Notes under the pieces: generated by a model
The model's input: the letters and a program-made list of their open reading frames with translations, nothing else
The model's database searches: none
Told to the model about the DNA's origin: nothing
Translations under genes and position numbers: made by a program
Source of the DNA: an uncultured cyanobacterium
GTDB lineage: Bacteria > Cyanobacteriota > Cyanobacteriia > CAKZMO01
Direction: 5' to 3'
NCBI GenBank assembly: GCA_963719515.1
Contig: CAVRCJ010000006.1
Span: forward strand, 416,001-480,000
DNA: 64,000 bases
In this document: piece by piece, positions 10,335 to 16,160 of the stretch
How positions within the stretch are numbered: position 1 is the stretch's first letter
How the letters are laid out: the number at the start of each line of letters is the position of its first letter

Positions 10335-10922
10335 GTGCGAGAGATTTTAATTAGCGTCGCTGTGATGATTGGCTGTGCCGCCGTGCTGGTTGTTGCTCAA
10401 CTGACGGGCTCATCGGCGATCGCGGCCCCGAGTGAAGTCCCTCGTCCGGCGTCAGCGGCATCCCCCCTAGAGCAGCGGATGGGCCCCTCTAGCGCATCCC
10501 AAACCGAACCCGAAATCATTGCCCAAGCCCCGACCCTATTTGAATCTAACCCCATGGCCTCAGAGGACTCAGCGCTTGACACAGTCACTACGGCTTCGGG
10601 CCTACAGTATATTGACGAAGTAGAAGGGACTGGCGCGCAGCCCCAGGCTGGCCAGACCGTAAGCGTTCACTATACCGGCACCCTAGAAGACGGCACCAAA
10701 TTCGACAGCTCTCGCGATCGCAATCGGCCTTTTTCGTTCCGCTTGGGCGCTGGACGGGTGATTCGCGGCTGGGATGAGGGCATTGCCACAATGCGCGTTG
10801 GCGGACAGCGCAAGCTAATCATCCCCCCCGATTTAGGCTACGGCGCGAGAGGGGCAGGTGGGGTCATTCCCCCCAACGCGACGCTCATCTTTGACGTTGA
10901 GCTGCTGCGCATTGGCGCCTAG
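10335..10922 (+). CDS. FKBP-type peptidyl-prolyl cis-trans isomerase (exported)
   Basis: [51 protein letters not shown] start after GGAG. Confidence 0.95.
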
Positions 10923-10951
10923 GATTTAGCGAGGCCAAAGGGCTTTGAGGG

Positions 10952-10994
10952 GTAGATGAGTTCTACAGGGGTCACCCCGCAGAAACTTGTCTAC
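10952..10994. terminator. Imperfect hairpin, probably the original terminator between the FKBP gene and kaiC
   Basis: GTAGATGAGTT...GGGG-TCA-CCCC...AACTTGTCTAC inverted repeat ending at the IS left junction. Confidence 0.45.
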
Positions 10995-11074
10995 CAAAGG
11001 CCGCCGCAGTGCTCCGCCTATACCGCGTAGCGGCTAGGGGGTGGTGAAGCGGCGCGTGAGCCGTAGGTGAGCAA

Positions 11075-11486
11075 TCAATCGATTTCGGCTTGCTGCTGAA
11101 TGTACTGCTTCAAAGCTGATATGGGAGCGCTGCCGCAGGAAATAAGGCAATACGACCTGCTCCAAAAAACCGGCTTACCCCGATAGACACGGTTGAGGTG
11201 TCCCGTCAAACTCTTTCCTGATTAAGCGGCTCGACACGGTTTTGAGATTGTTCACCAGCTTGGACGGCTGAACCTTGGGATTGACCGATATCAGCAAATG
11301 GATATGGTCCGGCTCACCATTGCACTCAATCAGCTCACATTCCCATTTGCCGAGGGTGGCGCGGAATATCTCGGCCAGCCGGTCTTGCATCGCAGCAGTA
11401 ATACATTTTCTGCGGTCCTCTGTGCAGACGACCAAATGAAACTGGATATTGTAAGCGCAGTGCCTAAGCTTGTTTAGGGTCTGCAT
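11075..11486 (-). pseudogene. tnpA: IS200-type Y1 (HUH) transposase, frameshifted
   Basis: HLVVCT..RRKCI, GEPDHIHLL (HUH), LKTVSSRLIRKEF; +1 frameshift near 11200 then HLNRVYRGKPVFWSRSY...LKQYIQQQ (catalytic Tyr helix) to stop at 11075. Confidence 0.88.
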
Positions 11487-12066
11487 CGGTGTGACGACTA
11501 AGCTACAATACATCAATGCTAACACTGACCCGTGAGTACAAGCTGAAGCCGACCAAACGACAGGCGATTGAGATGGAACACATCTTGTCGGTCTGCCGTA
11601 GCGTCTGGAATTATGCATTGCGAGAGCGCAAGGACTGGATTGCCTCGCGCAAAAGCTCAGTCAATACCTGCTCTTTGTGGGGCGAGTACATCGTGGCTGC
11701 TGATGCTCCGTTTCCTGGCTTTGCTGAGCAATGCAAATCGCTGACGCAAGCCAAGACGTCGAACGCAGCGCTCAAGTCGGTCAATGCCCAGGTACTTCAG
11801 CAGGTGCTCAAGACGCTAGACAAGGCGTTTCGAGACATGAAGGAGCGCGGCTTTGGGTTCCCCCGGTTCAAAAAGCGAATGCACTCCTTCGTGTTTCCGT
11901 AGCTTGGCAAGCACCTTCTGGGCAATGGGTCTGTGAAGCCCCTGCATTGGCGACGCGAGGATTCGCCAGTCCCGGCCCTATCCCGATGGCTTCAGGGTTA
12001 AGCAGGCGCGGGTTGTGAAACGTCCATCAGGGTTCTATCTGATGCTGACGTTTCAGGCTGATTTAG

Positions 12067-12458
12067 CTACTAGACAGGAAGCCCCGCGCTCTACCCGTCA
12101 GGGTGAGCGTCGGGATGAGAGTCGCGCTAGCCGAAGTGCGCCCGCAAAATGATGCACAGCGGATAGTGCGCTCAGCGCTGAGGCTAGCAGTTGGTATGAT
12201 AGAGATAGCAAGGTGATACACCCCGCAAAGAGTGTGACGGGCCCGTAGGCGAAAGCTGCAAGTCACCCGTTCCTCAGTTTGCAAATGTATCTGCGACACA
12301 TAGTGCGTATCCTCCCTCGCGGAGATGAAAATTCAAAACTCTGCCGTGGGGCATCAGGCGGAGTATAAACCTATCTCAGGATATGTCTCGGCAATAGCTG
12401 GGAGTCACTGAGGAAGCCCGCGCTGTACAGCTTGCTGTCAGCGTCGGGAGGATGTCAC
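12067..12458 (+). mobile_element. 392-bp non-autonomous IS200/IS605-type element (MITE/PATE-like) nested in tnpB
   Basis: Removing it restores tnpB frame (GCT GAT TTA G|AC ATT CCT = ADLDIP). Inserted after TTAG; left AAGC+CCCGCGCT..AGCGTCGGG hairpin; right GAAG+similar hairpin+TCAC. Confidence 0.85.
12192..12200 (+). promoter_or_regulatory. Putative extended -10 promoter inside the nested element
   Basis: TGGTATGAT fits TGnTAnnnT. Confidence 0.45.
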
Positions 12459-12478
12459 ACATTCCTCAACCCCCTGTA
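12207..12478 (+). ncRNA. Putative stand-alone TnpB omega-RNA-like transcript (scaffold plus ~20-nt flank guide)
   Basis: No ORF; TTCCTCAGT (12270-12278) pairs with ACTGAGGAA (12407-12415); GCCGTGGGGC motif resembles the outer tnpB 3' GCCGTCGGGC; ends in right-end hairpin; boundaries inferred. Confidence 0.5.
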
Positions 12479-13019
12479 GCAGGTCATATTGTTGGTGTTG
12501 ATGTTGGCCTGGAGTATTTTCTTTCCACCTCTGACGGCCTTCAGATTAAGCGCCCTCGATTCTTTGTGGATATGCAGCGCAAGCTGAAATTGCTGCAACG
12601 CAGATTGAAGCGAAAGAAGCGAGGGTCAGCAAACTGGATTAAGGCTCAGCAAAAGGTGGCGCGGCTGCACGAGTGCATCAGGAATACCCGCAAGGACTTC
12701 CACTTCAAAGTCGCACATCAGCTTTGCCATGGAGCCGATGTGATTGCAGTAGAAGACCTCAACCTAGTTGGACTGTCGCGGGGTATCCTCGGTAAGCACA
12801 TGCGCGATGCAGGCCACGGGCAGTTTCTCAATCAGATATTGCCGTGGATTGCTTGGAAGCGAGGCAAGGCGTATCTGAAGGTTGATGCTCGCGGCACTTC
12901 TCAGGAGTGCCCTGATTGTGGGGACAAAATAGTGAAGCAGCTATCTGACCGCTGGCATAGCTGCTCTTGTGGGGCGTCAATGCCTAGAGACGTTGCCAGC
13001 GGCCAGGTGATTCGACATA

Positions 13020-13178
13020 GGGCCGTCGGGCGGACGGTTCTTGAAAATGCCTGTGGAGACGGTCTAACGGGGGCAGTAGCTTAATGCTGTTGTCTAGCCA
13101 AGAGTAAAAGAAACAGGAATCTCCGACTGTACCCACAGGGTCAGGGGGAGTGCGTCAATCTTCCTGTTCACCTTTTTC
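13020..13178 (+). ncRNA. Putative omega/reRNA of the outer IS (overlaps tnpB 3' end; guide runs antisense into kaiC)
   Basis: Position expected from TnpB biology; CCTGT/ACAGG pairing and right-end hairpin present; boundaries inferred. Confidence 0.55.
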
Positions 13179-14732
13179 CTGAAAGCCCTGCACGATACGG
13201 GAAAGCTCATTACGCTCATTGACCGCTATCCGGTTAGGCGAGCCGCTGATAATCCGCTCGTATTCTCGGAAAGACTTCTTAATCTGAGGTCCGTTCTCGT
13301 CAATCATGTACTCTCGGATGCCCTTGTCATGCCAAGAGCCGCGCATTTTGAAAACGTTGATGGCCCGGGACATTTCCCCTCGAATCTCGACGTACTGAAG
13401 CATCAATATGGTGTCAGTGATGGTCGAGATATGTGAGTCGGTGATTGAGTGAGACCCCATGAATTGGTCGGTGGTGTTCGTGAAGAACCCTGTAATCTCC
13501 TCTTGTTTAGCGAACCCTGTTACTCCAATCACAAACTGACGGAAGGTATTGTTGCTGACGCCGCGGGCTAGGGCGGAGAGCGAGTCGATAGCAATGCGGG
13601 ACGGCTTAAAGTTGGCAATTTCAGACTTGATAATCTGTAGGTGGTCTTCAAGCCCAGCAGACTCGGGATAAGCGCATAGAATGCGCAGCAGACCCCGCTG
13701 CTCCAACTCCTCAAAATCGATTCCCCAGGAATAGGCGTTACGGGAGAGCTGCGCCCGCGACTCTTCGTAAGCAAAAAGGATGGCACGGCTGTTGTTTTCG
13801 CAGGCGTTCTGCAGAAACTTGCTCACTAGCATCGTCTTGCCGGTGCCGGTAGCTCCGGTAGCCAGGATGATTGAATCTTTAAAGAAACCACCGCCGCACA
13901 TCTCGTCTAGCGTCTCAACGCCTGAGGACACGCGTACGTTTGACGAGCGCTGGGTGAGGCGCATCGCTCCGAGCGGAAAGATATTGATCCCCTGATTGGT
14001 AATCGTAAAGGGATACTCTCCCTTCATGTGGGTGGTGCCTCGCAGCTTGAGGATTTCGATTGTTCGTCTACGGCGTTCTCCCTCAAGGGCGTTGCGAACG
14101 ATAACAACGTTGTCAGAGACGAATTCTTCAACGCCGTATCGTGCTACGCTGCCATATTCTTCGGTTCGCTCTGCTGTCATCACGGTGGTAACGCCCACTC
14201 GCTTTAATCGCGATGCCAGTCGGAATAGCTCGCGTCGCACAATTGAGGTGGCGTCGTACTGCTGAAAAAGGGCGGTGACAGAGTCAACCGAGACGCGAGA
14301 CGCGCTGTACTTTCGAATGGCGTATTGAGTGCGCTCGATGATTCCTGACAGGTCAAAGTTACCGACGACTTCTTGACCTTCTGGATCGGGCGAGGCGTCT
14401 AAGATGAACAGCTTTCCGTCGTCAATGAGCTGTTGAAGATCCCAGCCGAAGCTATGGGCGTTCTCAATGATGTCGGAGGGGGACTCTTCAAAAGTAATAA
14501 AGAGTCCCGGCTCGTCGAAATGAATAATGCCGTTATATAAAAAATGAATAGCAAACAGCGTTTTTCCGGTACCCGAGGTGCCGCTGACCAGCGTCGTTCT
14601 GCCCGCCGGGATACCCCCATGACTGATATCGTCGAAGCCCTCAATCATGGTCCGGAGTTTTTGAACGCCCTCTTCCCCCCTCGACGTGTCAAAGGGGTCA
14701 GTTTCGCGAGCGTTGTAGGAGTTTGGCTGCAT
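13155..14732 (-). CDS. kaiC: Circadian clock protein KaiC
   Basis: Two Walker A motifs (GTSGTGKT, GATGTGKT), phosphosite region SHISTITD. Confidence 0.98.
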   Translation of the reverse strand: MQPNSYNARETDPFDTSRGEEGVQKLRTMIEGFDDISHGGIPAGRTTLVSGTSGTGKTLFAIHFLYNGIIHFDEPGLFITFEESPSDIIENAHSFGWDLQQLIDDGKLFILDASPDPEGQEVVGNFDLSGIIERTQYAIRKYSASRVSVDSVTALFQQYDATSIVRRELFRLASRLKRVGVTTVMTAERTEEYGSVARYGVEEFVSDNVVIVRNALEGERRRRTIEILKLRGTTHMKGEYPFTITNQGINIFPLGAMRLTQRSSNVRVSSGVETLDEMCGGGFFKDSIILATGATGTGKTMLVSKFLQNACENNSRAILFAYEESRAQLSRNAYSWGIDFEELEQRGLLRILCAYPESAGLEDHLQIIKSEIANFKPSRIAIDSLSALARGVSNNTFRQFVIGVTGFAKQEEITGFFTNTTDQFMGSHSITDSHISTITDTILMLQYVEIRGEMSRAINVFKMRGSWHDKGIREYMIDENGPQIKKSFREYERIISGSPNRIAVNERNELSRIVQGFQEKGEQED

Positions 14733-14832
14733 GGGCTATGCAATCTAAGTTAATACAGGGTCGTAACACTCTCAATCCTAGCCGGTTATGCGTCACTAGG
14801 GACAAGGCTACAGTACCGAAGAGCCGACGCTA

Positions 14833-15153
14833 CTAACTGTCGTCGCTCAGCTCACCATTGGACAGGGTATCGTAGAGCAAGTCTAGTCCAATCAGCACCT
14901 TCTCTCGATCAGACAAGTCCCCAATGATTTTACGAACGGGCGGCGGCAGAATTTTGGAGAGCGTCGGCGTTGCTAGGATCTTGTCCTCTTCAGCGAGCTG
15001 GGGATTCTTCATCACATCAATTACCTTAAGCGCGTAGACGCCATGAAACTCTTGCTCAAGGATGCTGTTGAGCGTTCTCAGGGCCCTCAGGGAGTTTGGA
15101 GTGTTGCCTGCAACGTATAGTTTCAAGACGTAGGTTTTTTGGGGAGGAGTCAT
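14833..15153 (-). CDS. kaiB: Circadian clock protein KaiB
   Basis: [37 protein letters not shown]. Confidence 0.98.
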
Positions 15154-15272
15154 AGGAGAGAGTCCGTACCTCTAGAGTGGACTGCTCAAAGCAGCATGCT
15201 AGAGACCGTAAATAAGGCCAAATAGGGCAAGGAAGTGGGCTTGTGACCAGGAAGGGAGCGATTTCCCGACGG

Positions 15273-16160
15273 CTAGGCCTGCCGAGGAATCGATCGCCTA
15301 TACATTTCGCATAGGTTAGAGAGAGTATCGATCAAGGTCAATCGGTAGTCTAGAAGAATTTCCTCGCTGCGGCCCTCGATTTTCAGCTGCTTGGAAAATG
15401 CATCCATAAGGTCCATGTGGATCTCAACGACTTGAACAATGGGCACGTCAGCAAAAAAGGCTGAGTTGACATAATTATCAATCTTTTGGTTGAGCAACGG
15501 ATCGTCTGTAAAGTAATTGAGAATAATTTCCTGGTAGCTTCGCTTCAGCTGAGCGAGCTGCCGCTGTTTTTCCTCTGAAGGTAGATAGCGCAGAAATCGC
15601 TCTGGATCTCGCTTATAGTAAACGCTCAAATACCCTAGCCTCTCTTTCAGCTTTTCGGCCAGTCGGTCTTGCTGACAGGCGAGCAGCGCATGCTCTTGCT
15701 TGTCGATATCATTGTGTGAAGGCTGCTCAGTTTCGCCTGATAAGGGGATTTTGAGAAACTGGTTGATCACGCGATCGATGTGGGACGGCAGCTGGTTGAG
15801 CTGCTGGAACTCCAGCCAATAGATCGCGGTGTAATATCCAAATTTATCTGGGCTGTCGGCCTGCTCGGCGATCGCCTCATCTTCGAGACGTCTGTCCCTA
15901 ATTAAAATTGTAGGCAACAAAATCGAGCGCGATCGCAGTTCGCCAAGCGCTGACGGAAGCTTGCCCTGAGCATCTAGAATTAGACAGTCAATACCATTGC
16001 GGCAGGCTTCAATCGCCTCAATGAAATCGCTGTGGGTCAGAAATATTTCGAGCTGATACGCGTCGCCGTCTAAACTTGACTTTAGTGAAGGCGCTACCGC
16101 ATCAGTCGCTAAGTAGGCATAGACAACTATCTTTGGCTTTGATTCCTGTTTGGAGGCCAT
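15273..16160 (-). CDS. kaiA: Circadian clock protein KaiA
   Basis: LKERLGYLSVYYKRDP, LLDYRLTLID, LCEMYRRSIPR; upstream of kaiBC. Confidence 0.96.
   Translation of the reverse strand: MASKQESKPKIVVYAYLATDAVAPSLKSSLDGDAYQLEIFLTHSDFIEAIEACRNGIDCLILDAQGKLPSALGELRSRSILLPTILIRDRRLEDEAIAEQADSPDKFGYYTAIYWLEFQQLNQLPSHIDRVINQFLKIPLSGETEQPSHNDIDKQEHALLACQQDRLAEKLKERLGYLSVYYKRDPERFLRYLPSEEKQRQLAQLKRSYQEIILNYFTDDPLLNQKIDNYVNSAFFADVPIVQVVEIHMDLMDAFSKQLKIEGRSEEILLDYRLTLIDTLSNLCEMYRRSIPRQA

What the first reader, a model, noticed from the sequence alone, without database searches (positions are those of the whole stretch)
12067..12478. Non-coding 392-bp element nested in tnpB: a mobile guide-RNA cassette aimed at its host transposon
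Seen: precise insertion after TTAG with no duplication; two related terminal hairpins with guides AAGC and GAAG that fit TTAG and TCAC; no ORF; internal TGGTATGAT; 9-bp long-range stem 12270-12278/12407-12415. Its motifs differ from the host IS, so it belongs to another family. Known: TnpB omega-RNAs take their guide from the right flank and the TAM equals the insertion motif. Inference: the guide ACATTCCTCAACCCCCTGTA next to TTAG would direct a TnpB in trans to cut uninterrupted host tnpB copies, allowing homing of one transposon into another.
Basis: partly seen in the sequence, partly recalled or inferred. Interest (0 to 1): 0.8.

Follow-up and report, generated by a model that had tools for sequence, protein, structure and literature searches.

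The report
Gene-less jumping guide-RNA cassette, 53 copies
This 392-base insert is one of 53 near-identical copies of a protein-less jumping element in a cyanobacterium that carries its own promoter and a guide RNA of the TnpB nuclease type; it landed in a dead transposon gene by chance and was not aimed at it, and its only unusual part is an uncatalogued folded RNA domain at the front of the guide.

Summary
The element is real (12067-12458). A related allele lacking exactly these 392 bases occurs in 3 of 4 runs. It is a homogeneous PATE of the IS200/IS605 family: 53 copies at 96-100% identity, all after TTAG, all ending TCAC, with random right flanks. The same genome has 3 TnpA genes and 17 full-length TnpB genes from elements with the same ends. 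Its 3' 120 nt is an omega-RNA scaffold with covarying stems and a pseudoknot. It sits behind a -10 box spaced like that of leaderless tnpB genes and a ~130-nt folded leader that Rfam lacks but another cyanobacterial family shares. Aiming at the host transposon is not supported: 1 of 53 copies lies in an IS200/605 gene against 0.62 expected. The host is single-copy and already broken, and no target exists in this genome. Each copy's guide matches its own empty site. Mobile stand-alone omega-RNAs are published, and this scan found sister families before (e1-7685781, e1-6807824). No transcript evidence was obtained.

The parts
12063..12066 (+). Target tetranucleotide TTAG (left cleavage site, outside the element; predicted TAM, often TTTAG)
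   Evidence: 53 of 53 copies, 47 of 53 with a further T; same motif at all 19 partner-family left ends listed
12067..12458 (+). The 392-bp ORF-less IS200/IS605 element (homogeneous PATE carrying a stand-alone omega-RNA)
   Evidence: 53 copies at 96.4-100% identity; empty allele joins 12066 to 12459 in 3 of 4 runs
12079..12114 (+). Left-end DNA guide AAGC and subterminal hairpin for TnpA
   Evidence: First 60 bases identical to the 1483-bp tnpB partner element; hairpin in fold
12126..12188 (+). Second long hairpin behind the left end; shared with other ORF-less families and with tnpA-bearing elements
   Evidence: Inverted arms 12126-12139/12175-12188; profile hits in other families of this genome and in L004, L005
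12192..12200 (+). Extended -10 promoter box TGGTATGAT; predicted +1 at 12207
   Evidence: A and T of TAnnnT invariant in 11 of 11 homologs, 6 nt before an A or G; 36 of 47 tnpB starts have TAnnnT + 6 nt + ATG/GTG; not found by the -35/-10 scan
12207..12338 (+). Folded 5' leader, not in Rfam and not derived from tnpB; conserved core about 12226-12285, outer helix 12213-12220 with 12286-12294
   Evidence: Homologs in 9 other genomes; 93.6% of cells paired, 4 of 20 pairs changed on both sides; no Rfam match; no match to TnpB profile or tnpB DNA
12339..12458 (+). omega-RNA scaffold: stem 1 (12339-12363), pseudoknot (12350-12354 with 12452-12456), stem 2 (12375-12379/12408-12412), stem 3 (12386-12403), right-end hairpin (12417-12448) with DNA guide GAAG and terminal TCAC
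   Evidence: 16 sequences (7 tnpB-bearing): 92.5% paired, 18 of 41 pairs changed on both sides, 0 of 500 shuffles as high
12459..12478 (+). Predicted RNA guide, taken from the flank (host tnpB sequence)
   Evidence: Inference from ISDra2 (PMC8612924); best TTAG-adjacent match in the genome has 4 mismatches in 16 nt
11516..13084 (+). Host tnpB pseudogene, interrupted by the element; also has a stop at codon 129 and a frameshift
   Evidence: a related allele has neither the stop nor the frameshift
10995..13158 (.). Host IS605 element (CTAC/TCAA ends, frameshifted tnpA on the minus strand near 11060-11480), single copy
   Evidence: Ends read (inferred); single copy; tnpA split over two frames; related allele aligns up to 13159-13160

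Best explanation
It is a protein-less parasite of a TTAG/TCAC IS605 family. TnpA made by one of three autonomous elements peels it out as single-stranded DNA and pastes it behind TTAG with no duplication (mobility shown by copy pattern; enzyme inferred). It keeps a tnpB-type -10 promoter, but a folded leader stands where the tnpB reading frame was. It is therefore predicted to make an RNA of about 270 nt from 12207 through the right end into the flank (inferred). TnpB from the partner family would load the 3' scaffold in trans and cut TTAG + guide, which is the empty site left when that same copy is excised or absent on a sister chromosome. Repair from the occupied chromosome then restores or spreads the copy (inferred from ISDra2 and Geobacillus work). 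The copy in this window fell into an already dead tnpB by chance and persisted because it did no harm.
For: 53 copies with fixed junctions and random flanks. Exact empty allele. Partner family with identical first 60 bp and about 87% identical last 85 bp. 3 cognate TnpA matches at 98-100% without stops (Pfam Y1_Tnp). 17 full-length cognate TnpB frames with D205, E289 and D368 motifs, 16 of them ungapped. Scaffold covariation including the pseudoknot, 96% paired; stem 1 is only 56% identical to the partner's yet keeps its pairing. Stems 2-3 track the local TnpB lineage: this element is 93% identical to its partner and 83% to L064, while L063 is 98% identical to L064 and 86% to the partner. Promoter spacing is shared with leaderless tnpB. 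Only 4 of 53 insertion sites fall in open frames of 200 codons or more, against 198 of 400 random TTTAG sites, so surviving copies sit in dispensable DNA. Published: PATEs often encode omega-RNAs acted on in trans (PMC10055086), and stand-alone omega-RNAs work in trans (PMC10691335).
Against: No transcript was seen: the four RNA runs hold only relatives as contigs, and none covers 12193-12314, which is uninformative rather than negative. The -35/-10 scan found no plus-strand promoter. A close TnpB (57% identity or more) was found in only 2 of 9 other carrier genomes (G243 57%; G507 75% with a stop); five had best matches of 33-44% and two had no match, although most are fragmented drafts. The right-end hairpin is 80% identical to the local partner but 98% to L064, so the element is not a simple deletion product of the local partner. 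TAM = TTAG is assumed, not measured.
Confidence: 0.63

Rival explanations
1. Passive PATE: only the two DNA ends matter. The promoter, leader and scaffold are inherited relics that are not expressed or not loaded.
For: No expression data. Cognate TnpB not found in 7 of 9 other carriers. The right-end hairpin must be kept for TnpA anyway.
Against: Stem 1, stem 2 and the pseudoknot have no known role in TnpA action, yet they keep their pairing through many changes. The -10 box and spacing are kept across two families. Leader hairpins of the homologs carry UNCG-type loops typical of RNA (read). Much shorter PATEs can move (52 bp in PMC3119063), so the middle 270 bp is not needed for transposition.
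Confidence: 0.2
2. The RNA is made, but its main job is not guiding cleavage. The conserved leader binds a protein or ligand, or refolds onto stem 2, making the RNA a decoy, regulator or conditional guide for TnpB.
For: The leader core is highly conserved in sequence (25 invariant columns of 66 in 11 sequences). It recurs with a different scaffold subtype in L095 and L096. The 53 cassettes outnumber the 17 cognate TnpB genes about 3 to 1. The 9-bp leader/stem-2 pairing is possible.
Against: The 9-bp pairing is within chance (15.6% of shuffles). Other ORF-less families in this genome have unrelated leaders, which fits interchangeable stabilising 5' ends. No partner gene travels with the element.
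Confidence: 0.13
3. One reading: a cassette aimed at its host transposon family, which homes from one transposon into uninterrupted copies of another.
For: By construction, TTAG + guide is the uninterrupted host tnpB. An intact allele about 92% identical exists in other populations.
Against: 1 of 53 copies lies in an IS200/605 gene against 0.62 expected. The host is single-copy and broken at three other places. No target exists in this genome. PATE insertion into IS605-type elements is an ordinary recorded event (12 cases in the table of PMC3119063).
Confidence: 0.04

Closest known systems
Homogeneous PATEs (palindrome-associated transposable elements) of IS200/IS605; Haloquadratum walsbyi, PMC3119063 (passages read)
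   Same: No transposase, no terminal inverted repeats, related near-terminal palindromes, no target duplication, conserved target oligonucleotide outside the element, expansion at over 90% identity, insertion into IS605-type elements.
   Different: The passages read describe no internal promoter, folded leader or guide-RNA scaffold. This element is cyanobacterial, with TTAG/TCAC motifs.
Stand-alone omega-RNAs and PATE-like elements: Geobacillus stearothermophilus (PMC10055086, passages); OMEGA stand-alone omega-RNAs as summarised in PMC10691335 (passages; the primary 2021 paper was not held)
   Same: Mobile, effector-less, in the same genome as effector-bearing elements with shared ends, predicted or shown to act in trans; biological role stated to be unknown.
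   Different: Here 53 copies of one family, a retained leaderless-tnpB-type promoter, and a conserved ~130-nt 5' RNA domain not mentioned in the passages read. Extended data and supplements were not seen and may describe such anatomy.
ISDra2 TnpB omega-RNA (reRNA): PMC8612924 (passages), PMC10097598 (passages)
   Same: Scaffold of about 116-120 nt with four stems and a pseudoknot between the 5' loop and the last bases of the right end; guide from the flank; TAM equal to the insertion motif.
   Different: The ISDra2 RNA overlaps the tnpB gene (overlap recalled). Here it is free of coding constraint, has a longer stem 1 and follows a separate leader. The triple helix was not tested.

Membership tests
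PATE (IS200/IS605 non-autonomous element) | No transposase or other conserved protein gene | tested here: met
   Only a 78-codon frame, with no Pfam match and broken in L002
PATE (IS200/IS605 non-autonomous element) | Related subterminal palindromes at both ends, no terminal inverted repeats | tested here: met
   Direct-repeat hairpins 72% alike; no terminal inverted pair among those listed
PATE (IS200/IS605 non-autonomous element) | Insertion 3' of a fixed motif without target duplication | tested here: met
   53 of 53 copies after TTAG; exact empty allele
PATE (IS200/IS605 non-autonomous element) | Ends shared with a TnpA-encoding element in the genome | tested here: met
   C5:98443-100228 and two more
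PATE (IS200/IS605 non-autonomous element) | TnpA-dependent single-strand excision and insertion | not testable with these tools
   Needs an excision assay
Stand-alone TnpB omega-RNA | Scaffold with stems and a 5'-loop/3'-end pseudoknot homologous to that of tnpB-bearing elements | tested here: met
   92.5% paired; pseudoknot 96.2% paired, 1 of 5 pairs changed on both sides and 2 on one side
Stand-alone TnpB omega-RNA | Catalytically intact cognate TnpB in the same genome | tested here: met
   17 full-length frames with the three RuvC motifs. In other carriers a close TnpB was found in only 2 of 9
Stand-alone TnpB omega-RNA | Transcript running through the right end into the flank | tested here: inconclusive
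   No run holds this strain; contigs only; no cover of 12193-12314
Stand-alone TnpB omega-RNA | TnpB loading and TAM-dependent cleavage in trans | not testable with these tools
   Needs a bench assay
Targeted homing element (inter-transposon) | Enrichment in the host element, or a guide with unoccupied targets in the genome | tested here: not met
   1 of 53 against 0.62 expected; best target has 4 mismatches in 16 nt
Any Rfam 15 family (HEARO, IS605-orfB-I, ribozymes, riboswitches) | Covariance-model match | tested here: not met
   0 matches to E=10 in window 10900-13300; in 10 other loci only a flanking tRNA

The most novel reading that the evidence does not exclude
The leader (12207-12338) is an undescribed functional RNA domain that lets a gene-less element capture or control TnpB. 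It might stand in for the tnpB message during loading in trans, or act as a switch or sponge. The 53 cassettes would then form a dispersed, self-reprogramming guide library that out-competes the partner elements for their own nuclease and drives each insertion through a multi-copy cyanobacterial chromosome (polyploidy recalled, not tested).
Probability: 0.2. Interest if true: 0.7.

Novelty: new variant of a known kind. Interest (0 to 1): 0.38.

Why it matters
The class is known, but PMC10691335 states that the role of stand-alone omega-RNAs is unknown. This genome offers a compact test case. It has 53 almost identical cassettes with 53 different guides, 17 intact-looking cognate TnpB genes, 3 TnpA genes and several parallel ORF-less families with different leaders. 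A naturally non-coding, promoter-driven scaffold with a longer stem 1 could also inform guide design for compact TnpB editors. The headline idea of one transposon hunting another does not hold.

Tried and rejected
Targeted homing: rejected. Guides aimed at other genome sites: across 53 guides the best TTAG-adjacent 16-nt match has 3-6 mismatches, much like random 16-mers (2-5); 0 of 53 have an exact TTAG + 12-nt match. Leader as a decayed tnpB: no match to a profile of 49 TnpBs and no meaningful match to their DNA. Leader as a known RNA: no Rfam match. Recalled likenesses to HEARO, fluoride-riboswitch and twister-sister motifs were considered and dropped for lack of a model match. Small protein: 78-codon frame not conserved. 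9-bp long-range stem as a core helix: within chance. Expression: four metatranscriptome runs with 5-7% of words; contigs were from relatives and none covered the leader, so no conclusion. Wider spread: no match in plasmids or viral contigs. Two metagenome pattern hits were chance matches in unrelated GC-rich sequence. The core model found 0 of 150 other phylum genomes. In the family of G243 it hit 7 of 151, six of them training sequences and one weak (E 0.009) not examined. Four weak leader hits (E 0.006-0.008) were not examined. The inner two helices of the core show no both-side change. Left/right duplex energies of the outer core stem were mostly not beyond shuffles (fractions 0.03-0.42). 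One search used a mis-indexed structure and is void. In one search helix 6 was entered one column off and scored 0% paired, which lowers the total. The element lengths printed caught an internal GTCAC and were not used.

Full report
Observation. The window is cyanobacterial (kaiABC-like genes at 13155-16160, recognised from the translations; gene names recalled). A 392-bp stretch, 12067-12458, interrupts a tnpB gene right after TTAG and ends in TCAC. BLAST of the own genome gives 53 full-length copies at 96.4-100% identity, 33 distinct sequences. All 53 follow TTAG (47 TTTAG), all end in TCAC, and the 12 bases to the right show no preference. Together they make up 0.39% of the genome. Contigs from 3 of 4 public RNA runs carry a roughly 92%-identical allele of the host transposon joined from 12066 to 12459, skipping exactly 392 bases. 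The boundaries and the lack of a duplication are therefore shown. The strand folds better than all 100 shuffles (z -3.9; the opposite strand -3.4). The 9-bp long-range stem exists, but 15.6% of 500 shuffles have one as long.

Who moves it. A family of 1483-bp elements shares the first 60 bases exactly and the last ~85 at about 87%. It encodes a 398-aa TnpB (Pfam OrfB_IS605, Cas12f1-like_TNB, HTH). There are 17 full-length frames with the D205, E289 and D368 motifs, 16 without gaps. Three longer members carry a Y1 transposase at 98-100% identity without stops. All 19 left ends listed follow TTAG. This matches the IS608/ISDra2 peel-and-paste scheme (PMC3201880 and PMC8612924, passages) and the definition of a homogeneous PATE (PMC3119063, passages).

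The 3' end is an omega-RNA scaffold. I aligned the last ~125 nt of 9 ORF-less and 7 tnpB-bearing elements and counted a structure I derived from this element and its partner. Of the cells, 92.5% are paired and 18 of 41 pairs have a change on both sides, with 0 of 500 shuffles as high; slid controls give 33-45% paired. The structure was fitted to these sequences and they are related, so the shuffle is not a probability. Stem 1 has 6 of 9 pairs changed on both sides. Its loop pairs with the last bases of the right end (96% paired), the pseudoknot described for ISDra2 (PMC10097598, passages). Stem 1 is only 56% identical to the partner's. Stems 2-3 follow the local TnpB lineage (93% to the partner versus 83% to L064; the reverse for L063), while the terminal hairpin is closer to L064 (98% versus 80%). 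This mosaic suggests exchange with, or selection to fit, TnpB elements.

Promoter and leader. Of 47 tnpB starts examined in this genome, 36 have TAnnnT, 6 nt, then ATG or GTG, so they are leaderless (17 of the 36 are the one partner family). The element keeps such a box at 12192-12200 with an A 6 nt later (12207). So do all 10 homologous loci, one with a degenerate box, and the other ORF-less families. The strict -35/-10 scan finds no plus-strand promoter here. The leader 12207-12338 matches neither a profile of 49 TnpBs nor their DNA, nor any Rfam family. Full-element homologs occur in 2 of 60 relatives (G002 93%, G004 86% and cut by a contig end). They also occur in 7 of 173 genomes of another family: 6 loci in 5 genomes with leader and scaffold, and 2 loci sharing only the leader core in front of another scaffold subtype. 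All are too short between their ends to hold tnpB. On 9 sequences the leader folds as one long irregular hairpin: 93.6% paired, 4 of 20 pairs changed on both sides. These changes separate two clades and so are few independent events, and 225 of 500 shuffles reach the pair count. A scaffold-junction pattern in GTDB contigs gave 5 loci, two already in hand. The 4 with upstream sequence are all ORF-less elements with a -10-like box; none lies behind tnpB. The leader core was not found in 150 other phylum genomes, in plasmids or in viral contigs.

Is it aimed at the host? No. Only this copy of 53 lies in a tnpA/tnpB match, against 0.62 expected from the share of TTTAG sites in such genes. The host IS has other end motifs, is single-copy, and has a stop at tnpB codon 129, a frameshift near 11939 and a split tnpA. 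No TTAG site in the genome is closer than 4 mismatches to the 16-nt guide, and the 53 guides as a set match no better than random 16-mers. Only 4 of 53 insertion sites lie in open frames of 200 codons or more, against 198 of 400 control sites. Surviving insertions sit in dispensable DNA, which a dead transposon is. What remains of the homing idea is general: each copy's guide describes its own empty site. That is the donor-joint retention model (PMC8612924; PMC10055086).

Evidence against my reading. I found no transcript. The four runs hold 5-7% of the words, are contigs of relatives, and do not cover 12193-12314. A TnpB at 57% identity or more to the partner was found in only 2 of 9 other carrier genomes, one with a stop. 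Most of these are fragmented drafts in which repeats collapse, but G523 has 9 contigs and its best match is 39%. TAM and loading in trans are inferred.

Known and new. PMC10055086 says PATEs often encode omega-RNAs acted on in trans (passages). PMC10691335 says mobile stand-alone omega-RNAs work in trans and their role is unknown (passages). The primary 2021 paper was not held, and I saw no supplements or extended figures, which may show such anatomy. Five full-text searches on this class listed no paper whose title or abstract start describes cyanobacterial elements with a promoter and conserved leader; PMC13565253 passages did not either. This scan's own earlier notes describe the same design in another family of this genome and in another genome (e1-7685781, e1-6807824), which I did not compare by sequence. 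Verdict: a member of a known kind with one undescribed conserved RNA domain; a new variant, interest 0.38.

Noticed in passing
window 13155-13160 and 10991-10994: The host IS605 sits at the very end of the kaiC-like gene. The stop codon of the minus-strand frame 13155-14732 lies within the element's terminal TCAA, so the insertion appears to have replaced the gene's last codon and stop (read).
   Followed up: partly
G000 C4:87310 and 17 more copies; C10:332137 group; C1:7533; C4:102360; C6:288146 (truncated): At least three other ORF-less TTAG/TTAA-type families of about 410-450 bp have the same design (left end, second hairpin, -10 box, leader, scaffold) but different leaders; one has 18 copies.
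   Followed up: partly
G000 C7:179643-180068 and C4:97930-98351: ORF-less elements with ends of the host IS type (CTAC/TCAA-like) that share the second hairpin and -10 box with the TTAG element, suggesting module exchange between families.
   Followed up: partly
L106:73-252 (minus strand): The 1483-bp partner elements carry a 60-codon divergent frame in place of tnpA (weak DUF6290 match, E 0.004). The 392-bp element's promoter region shares no visible sequence with the partner's and might escape it.
   Followed up: no
G000 tnpB genes: 36 of 47 tnpB starts examined have a -10 box 6 nt before the start codon, pointing to leaderless messages.
   Followed up: partly
L095, L096: The leader core occurs in front of a different scaffold whose 5' loop and 3' end both changed and still pair (GGCGT or GACGT with ACGTC; read).
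   Followed up: partly
L021, L075, L071, L025, L027, L028: Further ORF-less families in other cyanobacteria have their own leaders; L021 and L075 are homologous across families.
   Followed up: no
53 copies, element bases 2, 10, 11: Two sub-lineages differ at the left tip (31 versus 22 copies at base 2). The same variants occur among partner elements, hinting at exchange of left ends.
   Followed up: no
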